33,221 nucleotides of DNA from a virus (Duplodnaviria > Heunggongvirae > Uroviricota > Caudoviricetes). This document shows, one piece after another, positions 1,166 to 33,221 of this stretch (position 1 is its first letter; every line of letters begins with the position of its first letter). The stretch is from the IMG/VR virus record IMGVR_UViG_2636415418_000001, positions 1-33,221 of that record; one strand, given 5' to 3'. Below the pieces are notes generated by a model. It made no database searches. It was not told the origin of the DNA and saw only the letters and a list, made by a program, of their open reading frames with translations. The position numbers were made by a program, and so were the translations under genes.

Positions 1166-3115
1166 ATGATTGTTCTAAATCAGATTAACTCCTCACTTTT
1201 GTACAATGTCGCTTACAGGTATACCATGAAATCCGAGACGCTAACTGTCCAACAACTTTTTCAAGACCGCCGACAATACTGCGTTCCATTCTATCAACGT
1301 GCCTATGTATGGACTCAGCGAAACCAATGGTCAGCTCTACTGGAGGATATCCTAGAGAAAGCACAATCCCGGCTCTCGGGTACAAAACCAACTCCCCATT
1401 TCCTTGGTGCAGTGGTACTGGAACCTCAACCAAAAAAAGGATTATTAGGTGTAGATTCCATACATATTATTGATGGTCAGCAACGATTGACCACTCTTCA
1501 ATATGTTCTGGCATCCATCCGATTAGCATTACGTGCGACAGATCTTTCCAACTTAGGGCCTCTCATTTCGTCTTGCCTGAAAAACTCAAACGAAGACACA
1601 ATGCGAAATAAAGAAGTAGAGCGCTTCAAACTGTGGCCAACTTTTCGGGATCAAACTCATTTTATTCAAAGTTTTAATGTTGAAAATATTGACGATATCC
1701 GGAATGTATTCTCTGATAGTTTCACGCAGCATGGTACGTTGCGTAAGCATTTTAATCACCCGCCATCACTAGAAGCATTATGTTTTTTTACTGAAGCCTT
1801 TATAAAGTGGATTAAAATAGAAAATCACTCACCACGAGAAAATGCTGTAGCATTAATTGAGGCTGTCTTGACGGATCTGAAACTAGTAAGCATATTTCTC
1901 GAGGCTGAAGATGACGCTCAAATAATTTTTGAAACATTAAATGGCAGAGGTGCGGAACTTCATGCCACAGATCTTATTCGCAATTATATTTTTATGTGCG
2001 CTGAACATGAAAATATTAATGCTGTTGAATTATATGAGAATGAGTGGAAGATCTTTGAAGATACGTACTGGTCAGAAAGACAACGTCGTGGTCGTATTAA
2101 TAAACCACGCATGGAGTGGCTAGTGCATGCGACATTGCAATCAGAAAGGCAACGTGAAATCGATCTGTCTCGTCTTTACAATGAGTATCGTGATTATGTA
2201 AGTAAGGACTTGCCTTCACAACGAGCAGATCTGCAAGTAAAGCGCCTCAAACAATATGCATCACAATATAAAGAATTGGTTGGTGGTTTTGGCACAACCC
2301 CCATCTCACACTTTGGACATCGCATCGCAGCCTATGATGTGACGACACTTTATCCGCTTGCTTTGTTCATTTCGATAGCTAACATCGCCGATGATGAGAA
2401 AGCAGCCATGTATAATGATCTTGTCTCCTACGTAGTACGAAGAGCCGTATGTGGCCTGACGCCAAAGAATTACAACAATGTATTTATGAATGTATTGCGG
2501 CACTTGTCTAAAACGGAAATTTCCAGTGTTGAGTTACGTAATATCCTCAATAGCTTAAATGGCGAAGCCTCACGTTGGCCTGGGGACTCAGAATTTCTCA
2601 ACGCTTGCATCAATGCTCCACTTTATCCTGGCAGGCTCGACGCACCGAAAATGCGCTCAATGTTAACGGAACTTGAAAGAGAACTTTGTCGCCAAGTGAA
2701 GACAGAGAAGCCTGATGTTCCAAATCTTTCTAACCTCGATATCGATCATCTTATGCCTCAAAGTTGGTATTCCTGTTGGCCTCTCGAAAATGGTCATATG
2801 GTGACAAATTCAGATGCTACGGTATTGAACCAAATTGTTCTGTCTGGAACCGATCTTACCCCTGAACAGCTACTGGTAAGGAAACGGCAACAAGCGATAG
2901 CTACGTTGGGAAATCTAACTTTGCTTAACCTTAGCGTAAACCGTTCTGTTCAGAATGCTGTATTTCTGAAAAAACGTGATGCTCTCATCGTCCACACCAA
3001 TCTACGACTGAACATTCCACTTATAGTTAAGGATAAATGGGATGAGGATGAAATCCTGGAGCGGGGTAAAAAGTTGGGGGAAATTGCATTGAAAGTATGG
3101 CCAAAACACGATTAA
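1166..3115 (+). CDS. DUF262 (ParB-like, DGQQR motif) plus DUF1524 (His-Me/HNH-like) fusion protein; GmrSD-like putative type IV restriction/defence nuclease
   Basis: 649-aa ORF; N-terminal YQRAYVW and IDGQQRLTTL motifs, C-terminal DIDHLMP motif; AT-rich relative to the adjacent tail genes; the ATG at 1226 (MKSETL) is an alternative start. Confidence 0.8.
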   Translation: MIVLNQINSSLLYNVAYRYTMKSETLTVQQLFQDRRQYCVPFYQRAYVWTQRNQWSALLEDILEKAQSRLSGTKPTPHFLGAVVLEPQPKKGLLGVDSIHIIDGQQRLTTLQYVLASIRLALRATDLSNLGPLISSCLKNSNEDTMRNKEVERFKLWPTFRDQTHFIQSFNVENIDDIRNVFSDSFTQHGTLRKHFNHPPSLEALCFFTEAFIKWIKIENHSPRENAVALIEAVLTDLKLVSIFLEAEDDAQIIFETLNGRGAELHATDLIRNYIFMCAEHENINAVELYENEWKIFEDTYWSERQRRGRINKPRMEWLVHATLQSERQREIDLSRLYNEYRDYVSKDLPSQRADLQVKRLKQYASQYKELVGGFGTTPISHFGHRIAAYDVTTLYPLALFISIANIADDEKAAMYNDLVSYVVRRAVCGLTPKNYNNVFMNVLRHLSKTEISSVELRNILNSLNGEASRWPGDSEFLNACINAPLYPGRLDAPKMRSMLTELERELCRQVKTEKPDVPNLSNLDIDHLMPQSWYSCWPLENGHMVTNSDATVLNQIVLSGTDLTPEQLLVRKRQQAIATLGNLTLLNLSVNRSVQNAVFLKKRDALIVHTNLRLNIPLIVKDKWDEDEILERGKKLGEIALKVWPKHD

Positions 3116-3365: not shown

Positions 3366-3740
3366 ATGATGCCATTTGCTCGTTATTTCTGCATCTTCAT
3401 AAACGTTGGTTTGGGAGAAGCGGCAAAACGGAATGTGGGAACTGGGGAAAATCAGATACCTGATATGTCATCATATGCATCAGGTTCAGGCTGGCGAAAA
3501 ATGCCAGATGGTTCAATTGAACAGTGGGGACGAATTAGTTTTCCTAGTGAACACGGGCCTGTATCCGCCAATGTTTCATTCCCGATTCCATTTACACAGA
3601 CACCGGGCATTGTAATTGTGTGCGATGGTGGTTTCGGGGGTGGGAATATGTGGGGGGCGACCAACTGGAGCACTACCGGCTTCATAGCTCACTGCAATTA
3701 TGGTCTTGAAGGTGGTGCGTTTTTCGCTAAGGGCTGGTAA
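3366..3740 (+). CDS. alternative tail-fiber C-terminal cassette (S'v-like); silent in this orientation
   Basis: ORF reads through crossover site A in the same frame and with the same NxGLG(D/E) junction as the expressed fiber at site B; Gly-rich C-terminus; Tfa gene directly downstream. Confidence 0.5.
3394..3419. repeat. 26-bp invertase crossover site (gix/hix/pix-like), pin-proximal
   Basis: TCTTCATAAACG-TT-GGTTTGGGAGAA; inverted copy of the site at 5189-5214 (13-nt perfect core TCTCCCAAACCAA); lies in frame in the alternative fiber cassette. Confidence 0.65.
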
Positions 3741-4183
3741 TGATGAAATATCTGTACGTAAACAACCTGGCATATCCTTACGAACTTAAGTCTCTTTATG
3801 TTGAAAAAGGTGAGTGGCCTGAAGAAAAAGGTGTTGATATAGACGAAGTAATTTTCAGGGAATATTTCTATGATACACCACCAGAAGGAAAATACAGATG
3901 TGTCGGAGAAGATGGACTGCCTGCATGGGTAGATATTCCTCCACCAACACGTGAAGAACAAATTGCATCAGCCGAAACTAAAAAGCAGCAATTGATTAAT
4001 CAGGCCAACGAATACATCAACAGTAAACAATGGCCAGGTAAAGCATCAATTGGTCGTCTGAAAGGTGAGGAACTGGTGCAATATAATTTGTGGCTGGATT
4101 ATCTGGACGCACTGGAACTGGTTGATACCTCCAGTGCTCCAGATATTGAATGGCCTACGCCTCCGGCAGTTCAGGCCAGATGA
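3740..4183 (+). CDS. tail fiber assembly protein (Tfa/U'-like) for the alternative cassette
   Basis: 147-aa ORF with a Tfa-family C-terminus (…TSSAPDIEWPTPP), converging on the minus-strand Tfa. Confidence 0.65.
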   Translation: MMKYLYVNNLAYPYELKSLYVEKGEWPEEKGVDIDEVIFREYFYDTPPEGKYRCVGEDGLPAWVDIPPPTREEQIASAETKKQQLINQANEYINSKQWPGKASIGRLKGEELVQYNLWLDYLDALELVDTSSAPDIEWPTPPAVQAR

Positions 4184-13155: not shown

Positions 13156-14651
13156 TATGCAGACTCCTCTGAATACTGAAGACGGAACTGGTTAACCACG
13201 GCAAAGACACGCAACTGGTTAACATAGTCAGGCGGGAACAGCGTGTTCAGGCGGTTCGGATCGCTGGCATCACGCTCCACAACCAGGTACTGCTTAAACA
13301 GTTCGTAGTTTTCCACGATCCCCGCACGCTCAAGCTGACGGTAGGTTGCCAGCAGTTCCCCTTTGATCACCGCCGGGGTGACAATCGCCTGACCGGGACC
13401 AAAGCGGGTACCGTCACTGGCAAGCTTGTGACGCCCGTACTTACTGGTAATGACGGATTTCAGTTTGCGCAGTACATACGCGCTGGTATGCAGTGTCTCA
13501 CTGTCGAGGTAGCTGTTATCCGCAACCCCGTAAGCGTTTTTCCTGTACGTGGTGACATCACGCTGAATGCGCAGTACCCCGCTTTCGACATACGCCGTTG
13601 CCACGCCATGAGACAGCAGGGTCTGTTGTTCGGTCATCGTGAACCGTTTCCCCTTCGGCGCAGGCAGCATACCCACCAGCTCACCGGTCTGCGTGGGACG
13701 TGCCGGATCGTTGCGGATAAACACCGCTGCGCGGGCGGTACGGCTTGCCGCCAGCTCGTCGGCAGGCGTCTGGGTCTCTTTTTCGTATCCCGCCAGGGTA
13801 ATGTGCTGCTGGTTAAACTGGTCACCTGCGGTCACCAGTTCTGACAGCGTGCCGATCTTTGCCGTATACACATGACCATACAGCTGACGCGCATAGCTCC
13901 AGCGACCGCTGGTATCGTTCATCTCGGTCACCAGCGTGTTAACGGAGGCTGTGTCGTTGAACGGCAGGCCGATATAATCAAACGGCTCATCCGCCATTGC
14001 AGCCACCGCGCCGGTGAGAACAGGAGCGCCCGTTCCGGCGGTACCCGTCGCCACGGCAATCTGTACGCCCGCTGGCAGCACTTCGCCCCCACCAAAGCCG
14101 TAGTAATTGAGGCTGACAGGAATTTCATTCCCGCAAAGCCCCTTATGACGCGCGGTCAGTGTGACCACGCCTGCCGAAGATGAGGCAGTAAACGGCAGGG
14201 TCGGAACGGCATTGATGGCATCTTTGATACTGCTGGCAATCGTCGCGACGTTATCGCCGTTGGTCACCGGTGCCTGCACGCGGGTACGTCCCACATAAAC
14301 ATTCACCGTGCCGGTTTCGGTTGCCGCGCCGGTCACCGTCAGCGTAACTGTTGCCGCCGCGCCCGTGGATTCAGGAACGGCAATCACATACAGTTCACCA
14401 AACGGGTCGGTCTGGCGATAAGCCTCGACCATACGCGCCAGCTGACTTCCCGCACCACAAATCTGGCGTGCATAGTCTGCCGATGGCATCAGCACCAGAC
14501 TGTTGGCAACAATCTCTGCACCGTTATTGGCATGACCAATCAGCAGCGATGCTCCGCTGTCCTGTGCAGTATTCGCCGCCGAGTTATCCATTTCCGCATA
14601 AAAAATCGGAACCAGCGTATTCGACGGAATGGTGTTAAAGCTTATCGTCAT
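13155..14651 (-). CDS. contractile tail sheath protein (Mu L-like)
   Basis: 498-aa ORF; size and position fit a myovirus sheath upstream of the tube gene. Confidence 0.85.
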   Translation of the reverse strand: MTISFNTIPSNTLVPIFYAEMDNSAANTAQDSGASLLIGHANNGAEIVANSLVLMPSADYARQICGAGSQLARMVEAYRQTDPFGELYVIAVPESTGAAATVTLTVTGAATETGTVNVYVGRTRVQAPVTNGDNVATIASSIKDAINAVPTLPFTASSSAGVVTLTARHKGLCGNEIPVSLNYYGFGGGEVLPAGVQIAVATGTAGTGAPVLTGAVAAMADEPFDYIGLPFNDTASVNTLVTEMNDTSGRWSYARQLYGHVYTAKIGTLSELVTAGDQFNQQHITLAGYEKETQTPADELAASRTARAAVFIRNDPARPTQTGELVGMLPAPKGKRFTMTEQQTLLSHGVATAYVESGVLRIQRDVTTYRKNAYGVADNSYLDSETLHTSAYVLRKLKSVITSKYGRHKLASDGTRFGPGQAIVTPAVIKGELLATYRQLERAGIVENYELFKQYLVVERDASDPNRLNTLFPPDYVNQLRVFAVVNQFRLQYSEESA

Positions 14652-22894: not shown

Positions 22895-23758
22895 TCAGGA
22901 AATAATACCCTCCGATTTTCCTTTGCTTATGTAAACTAATTTATCATTACCTAATGATAACACTTGTTGAAATTGTGGCTTTATTTTTATGCATCCTCCC
23001 AAAAAATAAGCAAAACTACTTACCCCTCCAATAACATTATAAGGATAATCTACTGACATAGATAAAACAGTTCCCGCCAGACTAAATATTTGTGAAAAAT
23101 CGAACTCAAAGGAAGTAGAGATGCTAAATTTTATTGGACTTTTCCACACTTCACAATTTAAGCGTTCAATATCCTTTATTGCTTGTTTAAGATTAGAAAG
23201 AGCTTTTGCTTTCTGAAGATTGATATCACCAGAACGTTTTATATCCAAGTAAAGCTCATCAAGATATTCATGTAAAGCGATTAATTCAGGTTTTCTTCTT
23301 TCCTTGAAATCAAGAATATCATGTAGGTGCACATCTTCTGTGGGAACGGGTAATAAATTTGCTAGTTCAAAACGTATCACTTCTGAGGTTCTAGATAATT
23401 CAGGCACCAAGTTTATTTGGTCACTTAAAAAATGCATGCGCCAATCGACAGAAGAATCCGCATGCCTAAGTATATCTATTGTTTTGGCATGAGTTTCAGC
23501 ATAAAAATCAGCCATATATTGGCCATCAAAACAACCATGATGTCTATATACAGGTCTGGTTAGCAATCCACATTTTTCTAATTCATCCTCGTTATTTAAT
23601 GCTGTATGTATAATATTATTAGTGGGTGAAACTAGTTTATCCCAATAAAGACATAGATAGTTTATTTCTAATTGACTAATCCATTTACCTGTACGGATGC
23701 CTTTTCCATCCTCGGTTTTAAGTAATTCGCATGCACTAAATACCACACCTCTTTCCAT
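22895..23758 (-). CDS. hypothetical protein, AT-rich cargo (no family recognised)
   Basis: 287-aa ORF with a strong RBS (AGGAGA 7 nt upstream); markedly AT-rich compared with flanking lysis and packaging genes. Confidence 0.6.
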   Translation of the reverse strand: MERGVVFSACELLKTEDGKGIRTGKWISQLEINYLCLYWDKLVSPTNNIIHTALNNEDELEKCGLLTRPVYRHHGCFDGQYMADFYAETHAKTIDILRHADSSVDWRMHFLSDQINLVPELSRTSEVIRFELANLLPVPTEDVHLHDILDFKERRKPELIALHEYLDELYLDIKRSGDINLQKAKALSNLKQAIKDIERLNCEVWKSPIKFSISTSFEFDFSQIFSLAGTVLSMSVDYPYNVIGGVSSFAYFLGGCIKIKPQFQQVLSLGNDKLVYISKGKSEGIIS

Positions 23759-27456: not shown

Positions 27457-27640
27457 GCTTCACCTCCGCAGAGGTCAAACGCTGGATGCAAAAAATCGCA
27501 GGTACATTTCTGCATCTGTGAAGGGAGAAGAGAGTTTGGATTGTATGTGCGCATAAACGTCCCCGTTTAGCGCAGAAGTCACCGAAGTTGTTCAAGCTCC
27601 GGTGACACAAGTATGGCGGTTTGATTATGGAAAATCAATT

Positions 27641-28453
27641 TTAGAATTTCATGTTAAAGCCGCTAAAATCTGTTTTTTTCTTGTATGGTATGGTCGTGTA
27701 CTGATCTGTTGATGTTTTACTCATAACATGTGCGAGAATAAGTTCATCTCCTGAATCCAGCCAAAACTCCACAGTCAAATGAATTTTTGGTTTAAGACCA
27801 TGCATTAATGCAACCATTTGTGCGCTAAACACTTCACCCGTGCTTAGTTTATAGTCTGAACGGAAACCTTGGATAAAACCACTTTCACCTAATACATTAT
27901 ATCTTAATTCATTATCCTTTAATTTATTAGTAAATAAGAACAAAAAGTCAGCGGTAACCTCGCTAAAATGATCAGCGGAAACCCTAACTATTACTTTATT
28001 GGATTCTGTTTTAAAGTCATATGAAAGATTGGAGAATAATTCATCCTGAGGTTTATAAGTGCTTTTACCAGAGATAATATCATTCATTTGTGCTATCACT
28101 ACATCTATACCATTTGTATAAAGGTCCAAATACACTTTTTGAGTAAGAAGTGCAGGCATAGGTGATTCATCACAACGTATAGCAATGAATTTAACATCTC
28201 CAGTGGCGGCTTTCATAAGTGCATTCTGCCATTCTAAAGACACCATATCACTCTTAAGGCTATTTTTTGTAACAAAGAAAAAGAAAATTTTAACGGATTC
28301 GATTCCATCATTCATTCGTTCAATAATCCCTTCACCAGGCTGAATTGACCACGAATCATAAAATACGTTATCCCTGCCATATATATCTGCAATTTTATCT
28401 GCAATATACCCAACGAAAGCTTTGTCTTTATAATTATGACTAATAAAAATCAT
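27641..28453 (-). CDS. TIR-domain protein with uncharacterised ~140-aa C-terminal domain
   Basis: N-terminus MIFISHNYKDKAFVGY…WSIQPGE…SLEWQNAL fits the bacterial TIR fold; strongly AT-rich gene with its own RBS. Confidence 0.7.
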   Translation of the reverse strand: MIFISHNYKDKAFVGYIADKIADIYGRDNVFYDSWSIQPGEGIIERMNDGIESVKIFFFFVTKNSLKSDMVSLEWQNALMKAATGDVKFIAIRCDESPMPALLTQKVYLDLYTNGIDVVIAQMNDIISGKSTYKPQDELFSNLSYDFKTESNKVIVRVSADHFSEVTADFLFLFTNKLKDNELRYNVLGESGFIQGFRSDYKLSTGEVFSAQMVALMHGLKPKIHLTVEFWLDSGDELILAHVMSKTSTDQYTTIPYKKKTDFSGFNMKF

Positions 28454-28545
28454 CGCTTAAACCCTTATTTTATGTGCAAAAGATATAAAAACCAGCCATT
28501 GAGGCCTTGTTATTATAACTTTAGGTTTTGGAAATTCCATTGATT

Positions 28546-31389: not shown

Positions 31390-31493
31390 AACAACCTCCG
31401 TGGTTAATTTGAATCAAGATTAAAACTATGGTTGTTTTTAGTCAACAACCATTTTCGTTTGATGGAATAAAACCTTGGTTGTACATTTGGACT
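31390..31493. promoter_or_regulatory. immunity switch region with operator-like repeats
   Basis: Recurring ACAACC/GGTTGT half-sites, including a 9-bp perfect inverted repeat ATGGTTGTT-N7-AACAACCAT (31428-31452). Confidence 0.5.
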
Positions 31494-32183
31494 ATGAAAA
31501 CAACACTCTCAGAAAGACTTAAAGAAGCCAGATTAGCGCGAGGCCTTACACAAAAGGCGCTTGGGGATTTGGTCGGGGTTAGCCAAGCTGCTATTCAGAA
31601 AATCGAAACAGGGAAAGCTAACCAAACAACTAAAATCGTGGAGATCGCGAACGCTTTGGGTGTGCGTGCAGAATGGTTATCTTCTGGCGTTGGAAATATG
31701 TCAGACAGTACAGTGCAACCAATACAATCCACTGTCAGCCATTCCAAATACTTCAAGATTGACGTTCTTGATATAGAAGTGAGTGCCGGGCCGGGAGTCA
31801 TCAACCGTGAGTTTGTAGAAGTCCTACGCTCGGTTGAGTACTCGTTTGACGATGCTCGTCACATGTTCGATGGCAGGAAGGCGGAAAATATCCGCATCAT
31901 TAACGTGCGTGGTGACAGCATGTCAGGAACGATCGAACCAGGTGATCTGCTGTTCGTTGATATCACGGTTAAATCTTTCGACGGTGATGGTATCTATGCG
32001 TTTCTGTATGACGACACAGCCCATGTAAAGCGCCTGCAAATGATGAAGGATAAGCTGCTCGTTATCTCTGATAACAAGAGTTACTCACCGTGGGACCCGA
32101 TCGAGAAAGACGAGATGAACCGGGTATTCATTTTCGGGAAAGTCATCGGGAGCATGCCGCAGACGTACAGGAAGCATGGTTGA
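31494..32183 (+). CDS. cI: CI-like repressor (HTH_XRE plus S24 LexA-like peptidase domain)
   Basis: Start at MKTTLSERLKEARL; S24 motif VRGDSMSGTIEPGDLLFVD; the track start at 31428 would place the operator palindrome inside the ORF. Confidence 0.85.
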   Translation: MKTTLSERLKEARLARGLTQKALGDLVGVSQAAIQKIETGKANQTTKIVEIANALGVRAEWLSSGVGNMSDSTVQPIQSTVSHSKYFKIDVLDIEVSAGPGVINREFVEVLRSVEYSFDDARHMFDGRKAENIRIINVRGDSMSGTIEPGDLLFVDITVKSFDGDGIYAFLYDDTAHVKRLQMMKDKLLVISDNKSYSPWDPIEKDEMNRVFIFGKVIGSMPQTYRKHG

Positions 32184-32359
32184 TTTAATGCTCATATTTT
32201 AGCCTTAGAAGGCCATTACAGACAAGTTAAACCTCAGCCCTTTAATTTATTAATACTTTGAATTTTATGTGTTTTTTATGATTGCATTTTATGCCCTGTT
32301 GATATCGCCTCCGTGTGAGTGCATAATTTAACCAAGGCATATTTTCAAGAGATTTCGTC

Positions 32360-32539
32360 ATGATTCGCAAATTATTAAAAATTATTGAATCTAAACCCCC
32401 TAGGGCCACTGATGCAGAGGTTCAGGAAGTTATTGACGAAATAAAGAAAAAACAAAATGAAATTGCCGAAAAGAAGGAAGAGATAAAGAATGACCGTATC
32501 CGCGGCGCAAGAATCACAAACCACCGATTCATTGTATGA
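32360..32539 (+). CDS. small hypothetical protein (59 aa), first ORF downstream of cI
   Basis: Unlisted ORF that I translated by hand; Lys/Glu-rich; weak RBS; overlaps the next ORF by 50 nt, so it may not be real. Confidence 0.3.
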   Translation: MIRKLLKIIESKPPRATDAEVQEVIDEIKKKQNEIAEKKEEIKNDRIRGARITNHRFIV

Positions 32540-33221
32540 TTTTCTATATGTTGATAACAAGCGGGCATCATCGCTCTTGGCACAGATGCATGGGCCTGGT
32601 GTAATAACATCTATCAGACAGGTAACAGCTGAAGTTGACAAATCAGTAAGTGATGCCGGCTTTGACATTAAAATCATTAAGTCAAAACTTGGTGTTGAGG
32701 AAACTATCAATTACACCCATGAAAAAAGCTATGATGCTTCATGGACGCTTCCTATTAACCTCTTAGATAAACTTTCTGAAAATGATCTAATAAAAACAGA
32801 ACTTAATGGTGAAAGACTTGGGAGTACTGTTTTATCTAAAGGCCATGTTCGTATTTTTGATATTTCCATGTTTCAAAAAAGCGTCCCGTTTGTAGCAAAA
32901 ATGCTAAAGGCAGAACGCTCCAAGCTACCGCCAAAAGCAAAAAAAACGAATGATAGTATTGACGAAATCCCCGTCTCGCCCGGTGTCACTTTTGGCATGA
33001 TGAAAGAAGTACTTAATATTGTCCCGAACACATTGCAGGTTGATTTTATTAATGATTTTGGTCAAACCATTTGGATGACTATTAATCGTGATTACCTCAC
33101 CATTAATCCAGACGATATGGTTCTAAAATATGGTGGGAGTATTCCAGGCGAATGGTACGTACTTGGTTTTATCGATGCCCTTCCTGAATATGACCAAGAA
33201 CTTTTGGTGATGCTGCCAACT
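32490..33221 (+). CDS. hypothetical protein, 3'-partial (at least 244 aa), rexA-position cargo
   Basis: ATG at 32490 with GAAGGAAG RBS; open to the window end with no stop; AT-rich; no recognisable motif. Confidence 0.55.
   Translation, partial: MTVSAAQESQTTDSLYDFLYVDNKRASSLLAQMHGPGVITSIRQVTAEVDKSVSDAGFDIKIIKSKLGVEETINYTHEKSYDASWTLPINLLDKLSENDLIKTELNGERLGSTVLSKGHVRIFDISMFQKSVPFVAKMLKAERSKLPPKAKKTNDSIDEIPVSPGVTFGMMKEVLNIVPNTLQVDFINDFGQTIWMTINRDYLTINPDDMVLKYGGSIPGEWYVLGFIDALPEYDQELLVMLPT

What the first reader, a model, noticed from the sequence alone, without database searches (positions are those of the whole stretch)
32184..33221. Unrecognised AT-rich module downstream of cI, in the rexAB-equivalent slot
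Immediately after the repressor gene, on the same strand, the composition drops and one or two ORFs begin (59 aa, then at least 244 aa running off the window). In lambda this slot holds rexA/rexB, co-transcribed with cI in the lysogen. Neither protein resembles anything I recognise, and the 50-nt overlap between the two ORFs is unusual.
Basis: partly seen in the sequence, partly recalled or inferred. Interest (0 to 1): 0.7.

Follow-up and report, generated by a model that had tools for sequence, protein, structure and literature searches.

The report
IS1-broken DolA-like prophage defence cassette
Just after the prophage repressor gene sits a small self-contained two-gene insert (a 59-residue protein plus a distant relative of a known anti-phage protein) that is common in prophages and probably protects the host from other phages, but this particular copy has been cut by a jumping gene (IS1).

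Summary
After the cI-like repressor, G+C drops to 35-41%, a 59-codon ORF (32360-32539) follows, and a second ORF starts at 32490 with a 50-nt overlap.

The second protein is recognisable. It belongs to Pfam DUF6414, the family of DolA from the Dodola anti-phage system. It does not simply run off the window. At 33205/33206 homology to intact copies stops, and the last 16 bases are the terminal inverted repeat of IS1. The gene is cut after codon 238 of 283 and loses its most conserved motif.

Intact relatives show a compact cassette: its own sigma-70-like promoter, the small ORF, the DUF6414 gene and a terminator. The flanks are unrelated. It sits after at least eight different repressors, and also in tail modules and next to integrases.

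The small ORF, its frame, a roughly 38-nt overlap and a C-terminal tail motif (G-A-R-x4-[KR]-F-x-[LIV]) are kept in 51 of 51 loci, down to 24% identity.

It is not Dodola proper. The PADLOC DolA model does not match, HMMs do not cross-detect, and no ClpB-like DolB is nearby. The predicted fold matches DolA (an OB-like core).

Best reading: an uncharacterised, DolB-less, DolA-like prophage defence cassette, inactivated here. Function is inferred, not shown.

The parts
31494..32183 (+). cI-like prophage repressor (HTH + S24 peptidase). This is context, not part of the mobile cassette.
   Evidence: Pfam Peptidase_S24 67 bits and HTH_3 49 bits. The identical gene in NZ_CP117717 is annotated as an S24 family peptidase of 229 aa. 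An upstream ATG at 31428 is also open.
32184..32298 (.). AT-rich spacer between the repressor stop and the cassette promoter. It is specific to this E. coli variant and is not conserved in other carriers.
   Evidence: In the alignment of 11 loci this stretch is an insertion found only in the window-type sequence, and there is no conservation upstream of the -35. No terminator-like site was found here.
32299..32327 (+). The cassette's own sigma-70-like promoter: -35 TTGATA (32299-32304), 17-nt spacer, -10 CATAAT (32322-32327).
   Evidence: 10 of 12 consensus match in the scan of the identical sequence in L001. TTG of the -35 and CATAAT of the -10 are invariant across 11 loci whose upstream flanks are unrelated.
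32360..32539 (+). Small partner gene, 59 aa. The product is soluble and highly charged, with the conserved C-terminal tail R-G-A-R-I-T-N-H-R-F-I-V.
   Evidence: ORF. PHROG 29688, E = 7e-36, unknown function. Present in 51 of 51 related loci in the same relative frame, with the tail motif G[AST]Rx4[RK]Fx[LIV]. dN/dS 0.29. No TM segment. The exact protein is on record in 496 blocks of the assembly collection.
32490..33205 (+). 5' part (codons 1-238 of 283) of the DUF6414 (DolA-like) gene, truncated by IS1.
   Evidence: Translation. 99.5% identical to intact 283-aa genes annotated 'DUF6414 family protein'. Pfam DUF6414 38.1 bits against a cut-off of 25. PHROG 9699, E = 3e-98. The lost C-terminus holds invariant G265, R266, Y271, G272, T274, P275, F279 and R280.
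32490..32539 (+). 50-nt overlap of the two genes. The large gene is in the +1 frame and has a Shine-Dalgarno-like AAGGAAGAG just upstream of its ATG.
   Evidence: Sequence. The overlap is 38 nt in 20 of 31 family loci and 35-71 nt in the rest.
33206..33221 (+). First 16 bases of the IS1 left terminal inverted repeat. The contig/window ends inside the IS.
   Evidence: It does not match the intact gene. It is identical to bases 1-16 of a 118-nt IS1 end that is 100% identical in more than 5000 plasmid records annotated with IS1 transposase, and that starts 55 nt before the transposase CDS in R100. The gene's remainder is absent from the window.

Best explanation
**What it is.** The region is a mobile two-gene 'moron' cassette inserted in the rexAB slot of a lambdoid prophage. 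Its order is: own promoter, a 59-aa charged helical protein with a conserved basic C-terminal tail, an overlapping and translationally coupled gene for a soluble 283-aa DUF6414 protein, then an intrinsic terminator.

**The large protein.** Its fold is predicted to have an OB-like beta-barrel core and a roughly 45-residue disordered loop, the same layout as DolA of the Dodola anti-phage system.

**Most likely function (inferred).** It is probably a prophage-carried, lysogen-expressed anti-phage module of the abortive-infection or exclusion type that works in the cytoplasm. The DolA-like protein would be the sensor or effector, possibly binding nucleic acid. The small protein would be its obligate partner (regulator, or antitoxin-like). 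It would take the place that the ClpB-like ATPase DolB has in Dodola.

**This copy.** IS1 has inserted after codon 238. This removes the last helix and the core C-terminal strand with the family's most conserved motif, so this copy is most likely dead.

**Shown:** anatomy, conservation, mobility, family membership, IS1 disruption.
**Inferred:** expression in lysogens, defence function, partner role.
For: **Family**
- Pfam DUF6414 at 38.1 bits, above the gathering cut-off of 25.
- Homologues are precomputed as PF19952.
- DUF6414 is the DolA component of Dodola.
- The validated DolA sequences from Millman et al. Table S2 hit DUF6414 at 78-103 bits.
- Dodola gives phage resistance in S. thermophilus.

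**Fold**
- The AF2 models of our protein and of DolA have the same order of secondary-structure elements and the same long disordered loop.

**Two-gene unit**
- The small ORF is present in 51 of 51 loci with a conserved frame, overlap and tail motif.
- It is under purifying selection.

**Moron anatomy**
- Sequence conservation begins at the -35 and ends at the terminator.
- G+C is low.

**Mobility and accessory sites**
- The cassette sits after many unrelated repressors. Among 56 flanking genes there are 15 Peptidase_S24, 19 HTH_3 and 9 Phage_CI_repr.
- It also sits inside tail modules and beside integrases.

**Other points**
- The same prophage carries other defence genes, a GmrSD type IV restriction enzyme and a TIR-domain protein.
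- IS1 cut.
- The family is large, with 1382 clusters at 50% identity.
Against: - No experiment links this clade to phage resistance.
- The PADLOC DolA model and all other PADLOC models give no hit.
- Reciprocal HMMs and hhalign between this clade and DolA homologues fail: E > 0.2, probability 0.6%. Homology to DolA therefore rests on the Pfam profile and on predicted folds of only moderate confidence (pLDDT about 71-73).
- Dodola needs DolB, which is absent here in every locus examined.
- Dodola's own mechanism is unknown, so 'works like DolA' predicts little.
- Promoter and terminator are consensus and conservation calls, not transcript data.
Confidence: 0.6

Rival explanations
1. It is a toxin-antitoxin or addiction module whose main role is to stabilise the prophage or kill segregants. 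The small upstream protein would be a labile antitoxin and the DUF6414 protein the toxin, with phage defence at most a side effect.
For: - The layout is that of a type II TA pair: small upstream gene, overlapping larger downstream gene, own promoter.
- Disrupted alleles hit the large gene while the small one stays intact: IS1 here and premature stops in L058 and L068.
- The conserved C-terminal tail could be a binding peptide or a degron.
Against: - There is no similarity to any known toxin or antitoxin family in Pfam, NCBIfam or PADLOC.
- The small protein has no DNA-binding domain of the kind most type II antitoxins use for autoregulation.
- Integrated prophages gain little from addiction.
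- A 38-nt overlap is atypical for TA pairs.
- TA and abortive infection are not mutually exclusive.
Confidence: 0.15
2. It serves the phage's own lytic or lysogenic biology, for example an OB-fold single-strand-DNA-binding accessory for replication or recombination, or an anti-defence factor, and not host protection.
For: - The OB-like core resembles SSB, RPA and PriB.
- In enterobacterial carriers it neighbours the recombination genes gam, bet and exo.
Against: - It is outside the pL operon, bracketed by its own promoter and terminator.
- It is equally found in tail modules and at prophage ends beside integrases, where a replication factor would make little sense.
- It is absent from most related lambdoid phages: only 2 of 5426 complete E. 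coli genomes carry this variant, and there is no match in 50,697 phage records at the near-identity level. It is therefore dispensable.
- The prophage in this window tolerates its disruption.
Confidence: 0.12
3. The two ORFs are one gene. A programmed +1 ribosomal frameshift in the conserved overlap would fuse the small ORF to the DUF6414 protein.
For: - The large ORF is always in the +1 frame relative to the small one.
- The overlap length is strikingly conserved, at 38 nt in 20 of 31 loci.
Against: - All six large ORFs whose start regions were read have their own ATG or GTG preceded by a purine-rich Shine-Dalgarno-like sequence at normal spacing, and a start codon was found for all 31.
- The position of the start within the overlap varies (35-71 nt) while the small ORF's tail motif stays fixed.
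- No natural in-frame fusion was seen among 49 homologues or 150 representatives.
- The small ORF's tail, ending in a stop codon, is itself conserved as a C-terminus.
Confidence: 0.05

Closest known systems
Dodola anti-phage system (DolA + DolB; Millman et al. 2022)
   Same: - The large protein falls in the same Pfam family as DolA (DUF6414, PF19952).
- Its size is similar (283 vs 256-260 aa).
- Both are two-gene operons with overlapping genes.
   Different: - The PADLOC DolA model (250 bits on true DolA) gives nothing here.
- HMMs of the two clades do not cross-detect, and hhalign probability is 0.6%.
- There is no ClpB-like AAA+ DolB in any locus.
- The partner is instead a 58-99-aa upstream protein that is absent from the validated Dodola locus.
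- The C-terminal GRx4YGMTPLxIFR motif is absent from DolA.
- This clade is proteobacterial and prophage-borne, whereas the DolA homologues retrieved here are mostly from Bacillota.
Lambda RexA/RexB exclusion system
   Same: - Same genomic slot: directly downstream of cI on the same strand and upstream of OL/pL.
- Both are two-gene accessory modules.
- RexA (279 aa) is about the size of the DUF6414 protein.
   Different: - There is no sequence similarity to RexA or RexB.
- Neither product has a transmembrane segment, whereas RexB is a polytopic membrane protein (established knowledge).
- The gene order is small-then-large with a 38-50-nt overlap.
- The cassette has its own promoter and is not restricted to this slot.
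Phage 'morons' (Juhala et al. 2000; Hendrix et al. 2000)
   Same: It is an autonomous transcription unit (promoter, genes, terminator) with lower G+C than its surroundings. It is present or absent between otherwise related prophages and is inserted between functional modules.
   Different: 'Moron' is an anatomical class and says nothing about function.
IS1 insertion sequence
   Same: The last 16 bases of the window equal the IS1 left terminal inverted repeat.
   Different: Only 16 bases are in the window. The transposase, the other end and the target-site duplication cannot be seen.

Membership tests
Pfam DUF6414 (PF19952) | Whole-protein HMM score at or above Pfam's gathering cut-off (25 bits) | tested here: met
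   38.1 bits, E = 2e-9, residues 15-231 on profile positions 1-222 of 283. 44 of 49 homologues are precomputed as PF19952.
Dodola system | DolA component recognised by the curated DolA model (PADLOC PDLC03837) | tested here: not met
   No PADLOC hit at E <= 1. The positive controls, the two DolA sequences from Millman Table S2, score 251 and 256 bits. Reciprocal HMMs give E > 0.2, and hhalign probability is 0.6%.
Dodola system | Adjacent DolB, a ClpB-like AAA+ (AAA_2) ATPase | tested here: not met
   None in the neighbours of E. coli, Klebsiella, Salmonella, Acinetobacter or Serratia loci. No AAA_2 among 56 flanking genes. The true Dodola locus L071 has AAA_2 directly downstream.
Dodola system | DolA-type fold | tested here: inconclusive
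Dodola system | Confers resistance to phage infection | not testable with these tools
   Needs a plaque assay with the intact cassette.
RexAB-type exclusion | Located between cI and OL/pL on the cI strand | tested here: met
   In L001/L002 the order is cI, cassette, pL-like promoter with TATCACC repeats, then kil-gam-bet-exo. Compare the lambda map.
RexAB-type exclusion | Homology to RexA and RexB | tested here: not met
   hhalign probabilities are 0.2% and 0.15%. BLASTP gives no alignment.
RexAB-type exclusion | A membrane ion-channel component (RexB-like, several TM helices) | tested here: not met
   Maximum 19-residue Kyte-Doolittle mean is 1.04 (large protein) and -0.31 (small protein), so there is no TM segment.
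Moron | Own promoter and terminator bracketing the genes, with conservation ending at these elements | tested here: met
   Invariant TTG-17-CATAAT and a conserved GC-rich hairpin with T-run, with flanks unrelated across 11 loci. These are sequence calls only, with no transcript data.
Moron | Composition different from the host phage, and sporadic presence | tested here: met
   G+C 0.35-0.41 against about 0.50. 2 of 5426 complete E. coli genomes carry this variant. It is found behind at least 8 different repressor types and at other prophage sites.
Type II toxin-antitoxin | Small upstream antitoxin gene overlapping a larger toxin gene, with demonstrable toxicity and neutralisation | not testable with these tools
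   The layout is compatible. There is no match to known TA families. Toxicity is untested.
IS1 | Terminal inverted repeat GGTGATGCTGCCAACTTACTGAT at the element boundary | tested here: met
   16 of 16 bases match at the exact point where homology to the intact gene stops. In plasmid R100 the same sequence starts 55 nt before the IS1 transposase CDS. The rest of the element lies outside the window.

The most novel reading that the evidence does not exclude
The small-ORF + DUF6414 cassette may be a previously undescribed, widespread (about 1400 clusters at 50% identity) two-component anti-phage system of prophages: a minimal, ATPase-less relative of Dodola. In it, a roughly 60-residue protein with a conserved C-terminal G-A-R-x4-[KR]-F-x-[LIV] tail would control or complete an OB-fold DolA-like sensor/effector. 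The conserved 38-nt gene overlap would set their stoichiometry.
Probability: 0.4. Interest if true: 0.7.

Novelty: new variant of a known kind. Interest (0 to 1): 0.5.

Why it matters
- Dodola is a validated defence system with no known mechanism. A large sister clade of its DUF6414 component swaps the ClpB-like ATPase for a tiny conserved partner, which gives a simpler system for finding out what the DolA fold senses or does.
- The cassette is carried by temperate phages of E. coli, Klebsiella, Salmonella, Serratia and Acinetobacter at classic accessory-gene sites. If protective, it would affect phage therapy host ranges and prophage competition.
- Current defence annotation did not flag it when tested here. 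PADLOC gave no hit.
- For this window specifically, the copy is an IS1-disrupted pseudogene, so no phenotype should be expected from this strain.

Tried and rejected
- **Profile databases.** PADLOC, NCBIfam and a PDB sequence search gave nothing for either protein. PHROGs gave only unknown-function families.
- **Fold searches.** Foldseek against BFVD gave no significant hit. The afdb50 library was unavailable.
- **Direct homology to DolA.** hhalign with a single sequence and with a 35-sequence profile, and reciprocal HMM searches, all failed.
- **Complex model.** I tried to model the small+large complex as a linker fusion with a paired alignment.
- **RNA.** Rfam found no RNA family in the leader, the overlap or the pL leader.
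- **Literature leads that were unrelated.** The overlapping exclusion genes of P. aeruginosa phage Fc02 lie upstream of the repressor and have a different geometry. Gifsy GiPD474 is an ATPase-domain protein.
- **RexA/RexB homology.** Rejected.
- **Programmed frameshift fusion.** Considered, and judged unlikely because all six large-ORF start regions that were read have their own Shine-Dalgarno-like sequence and start codon, and a start codon was found for all 31.
- **Missing 3' part of the gene.** Not found elsewhere in the window.
- **Possible second pseudogene.** One split allele (L080) sits in an assembly with other odd gene lengths, so it was not counted.

Full report
**1. What is in the sequence**

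The window is a lambdoid prophage read with the early-right genes on the minus strand. These are replication P and O, a YdaT-like gene in the cII position, and cro.

On the plus strand, a repressor with an HTH and an S24 peptidase domain ends at 32183. After it, G+C drops from 0.44-0.54 to 0.35-0.41.

A 59-codon ORF occupies 32360-32539. A second ORF starts at ATG 32490 in the +1 frame, which gives a 50-nt overlap. It stays open for 244 codons to the last base of the window.

**2. The large ORF is cut by IS1**

Megablast against 5426 complete E. coli genomes finds the region in only two of them: TUM9868 (L001) and B1S11 (L002). Identity is 99.5%, but only over window 32184-33205.

In both genomes the gene is 852 nt (283 aa) and is annotated 'DUF6414 family protein'.

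The window's last 16 bases, GGTGATGCTGCCAACT, differ from the intact gene. They equal the first 16 bases of a 118-nt IS1 end. That end is 100% identical in more than 5000 plasmid records annotated with IS1 transposase. In plasmid R100 it begins 55 nt before the IS1 transposase CDS.

The remaining 3' part of the gene is nowhere else in the window.

The gene is therefore interrupted after codon 238. The predicted product is 238 native residues plus LVMLPTY. It lacks the last helix and the C-terminal core strand. It also lacks the family's most conserved block, invariant G265 R266 Y271 G272 T274 P275 F279 R280.

A contig that ends a few bases into an IS is typical of short-read assemblies. That last point is an inference.

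**3. A conserved, mobile two-gene cassette**

*Neighbourhoods.* Homologues at 50-79% identity in Raoultella, Kluyvera, Citrobacter, Klebsiella, Serratia, Enterobacter, Pantoea and Salmonella keep the same pair. So do homologues at 24-38% identity in Acinetobacter, Serratia fonticola and metagenomic viral contigs.

- In Klebsiella and Salmonella prophages, a 59-aa ORF plus a 276-278-aa DUF6414 gene lies directly after the repressor.
- In an Acinetobacter prophage the pair sits inside the tail module. In Serratia it sits at the prophage end by the tail fibre.

*The small ORF.* In 52 IMG/VR loci, the small upstream ORF is present in 51 of 51 testable cases. It is always in the same relative frame and ends 32-71 nt inside the large ORF. 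Its C-terminal motif G-[AST]-R-x4-[RK]-F-x-[LIV]-stop persists where the large proteins share only about 25% identity.

- The overlap is 38 nt in 20 of 31 loci.
- All six large ORFs whose start regions were read have their own start codon behind a Shine-Dalgarno-like purine run, and a start codon was found for all 31.
- The 46 non-overlapping codons of the small ORF have a median dN/dS of 0.29, so it is a real gene.

*Boundaries.* Alignments of 11 enterobacterial loci show that conservation starts exactly at a -35 TTG. It continues through an invariant -10 CATAAT 17 nt later (window 32299-32327). It ends at a GC-rich hairpin plus T-run immediately after the stop codon. Sequence beyond either end is unrelated.

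*Flanking genes.* Of 56 scanned flanking genes, 15 have Peptidase_S24, 19 have HTH_3 and 9 have Phage_CI_repr. Others are integrases, tail proteins and a terminase. None has a ClpB-type AAA_2 domain.

This is the textbook anatomy of a phage moron. It has been shuffled behind at least eight different immunity repressors and into other accessory sites.

The family is large, with 1382 clusters at 50% identity at E <= 1e-3. The exact E. coli small protein is on record in 496 blocks of the assembly collection, and its partner is intact in 9 of 10 places shown.

**4. What the proteins are**

*The large protein.* It passes Pfam's threshold for DUF6414 at 38.1 bits against a cut-off of 25. A 2024 preprint states that the Dodola defence system consists of a DUF6414 protein and a ClpB-related protein.

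I took the two DolA/DolB pairs tested by Millman et al. from their Table S2; only the B. cereus FM1 system is marked protective there. Those DolA sequences hit DUF6414 at 78-103 bits and the PADLOC DolA model at about 250 bits.

Our protein hits no PADLOC model. Further tests of a direct link also fail:
- HMMs built from 35 members of each clade do not cross-detect (best E = 0.24-0.62).
- hhalign gives a probability of 0.6%.

The predicted structures do agree. Our protein's model has pLDDT 72.6 and pTM 0.68. The DolA model has pLDDT 70.7 and pTM 0.68.
- Both show the same order of elements: an N-terminal strand and helix, a roughly 45-residue disordered loop, and then a helix/strand series ending in a long C-terminal strand.

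No homologue has a solved structure.

The validated Dodola locus has dolB (AAA_2) overlapping the 3' end of dolA. It has no small upstream ORF.

I therefore place the protein in Pfam DUF6414 as a sister clade of DolA. It has a DolA-like fold, but it is not a Dodola system.

*The small protein.* It has only an unknown-function PHROG (29688) and no other family. It is K/E-rich, with no transmembrane segment.

*Rex comparison.* Neither protein resembles lambda RexA or RexB.

**5. How it most likely works**

*Shown.*
- It is an autonomous promoter-to-terminator unit outside the pL operon.
- It consists of two co-conserved, overlapping genes.
- Both products are soluble.
- It is found at prophage accessory sites.
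- The large protein shows remote but consistent kinship to a component of a validated defence system.

*Supporting context.* The same prophage also carries a GmrSD type IV restriction enzyme and a TIR-domain gene in another AT-rich island. It is evidently a collector of defence cargo.

*Inferred.* The cassette is expressed in the lysogen and protects it against other phages by a cytoplasmic mechanism. The OB-like DolA-type protein would be the sensor or effector, and the small protein its obligate partner. The fixed overlap would couple their translation.

Two further details fit a costly or toxic effector held in check by the small protein, but the evidence is thin:
- The conserved basic tail is a candidate docking peptide.
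- The disruptions seen hit the large gene while sparing the small one: IS1 here, and premature stops in L058 and L068.

Dodola's own mechanism is unknown, so the analogy does not specify the biochemistry.

**6. Rivals**

- A pure addiction or TA role is compatible with the layout but unsupported by any family match.
- A role in the phage's own replication or recombination is suggested by the OB fold and the neighbouring gam-bet-exo genes. It is hard to reconcile with the cassette's own transcription signals, its variable positions and its dispensability.
- A frameshift fusion is unlikely, given the independent start signals and the conserved C-terminus of the small protein.

**7. Verdict**

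The slot assignment is right, and the defence-like interpretation is reasonable but unproven. Three corrections apply:
- the large protein is a recognisable DUF6414 member;
- the module is a self-contained moron;
- this copy is broken by IS1.

The cassette as a family is a new variant of a known kind, a DolB-less DolA-like two-gene module that PADLOC does not detect. The instance in this window is a pseudogene. Interest is moderate.

Noticed in passing
window 1166-3115 (+): A 649-aa GmrSD-type type IV (modification-dependent) restriction enzyme: Pfam GmrSD_N 119 bits + GmrSD_C 72 bits, PADLOC mREase_IV 1438 bits. It lies beside tail-fibre and tail-fibre-assembly genes (3366-4183). This is a second defence cargo in the same prophage.
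   Followed up: partly
window 27600-28500, ORF 27641-28453 (-): A second AT-rich island (G+C 0.31-0.37) between the replication genes and the nin region. It encodes a 270-aa protein with an N-terminal TIR domain (TIR_2 72 bits, weak PADLOC TIR-NLR 28 bits). It looks like another defence-type moron. The C-terminal 150 residues are unassigned.
   Followed up: partly
window 22895-23758 (-): A 287-aa DUF6236 protein (109 bits) near the lysis/late region. It has no PADLOC match and its function is unknown.
   Followed up: no
L001 13159-13637 (downstream of the intact cassette; beyond the window end): In intact relatives, a pL-like promoter (TTGATA-17-TATTAT, 13332-13360) sits among TATCACC operator-like repeats. 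It is followed by a roughly 280-nt leader and then kil. No N-like antiterminator gene is annotated. This raises the question of an HK022-style RNA-based antitermination, but Rfam found nothing.
   Followed up: partly
L001 vs L002 repressors (L001 11308-12000; L002 11311-12000; window 31494-32183): The two E. coli carriers have repressors with different N-terminal DNA-binding halves but near-identical C-terminal S24 halves, followed by the same cassette. This is a recombinant immunity region, with the junction inside cI.
   Followed up: no
L004 (1289 nt), L005 (1003 nt); size distribution: In many public short-read assemblies the cassette sits alone on a contig of about 1-2 kb (119 blocks under 2 kb). 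This suggests that its flanks are repeated between co-resident prophages and break assemblies.
   Followed up: no
L016 1255-3893 and 4945-5859: A distant DUF6414 homologue (P0049, 321 aa) has no small upstream ORF called. It lies next to an IS1595 transposase and a Schlafen-like helicase + EEP nuclease pair, a defence-island-like, non-prophage context.
   Followed up: no
PMC11514479 vs Millman Table S2: The S. thermophilus paper describes 'DolA' as the Clp-ATPase-like hexamer and 'DolB' as the two-domain protein. This is the reverse of the naming in Millman et al. and PADLOC. It is a labelling inconsistency in the literature to keep in mind.
   Followed up: no
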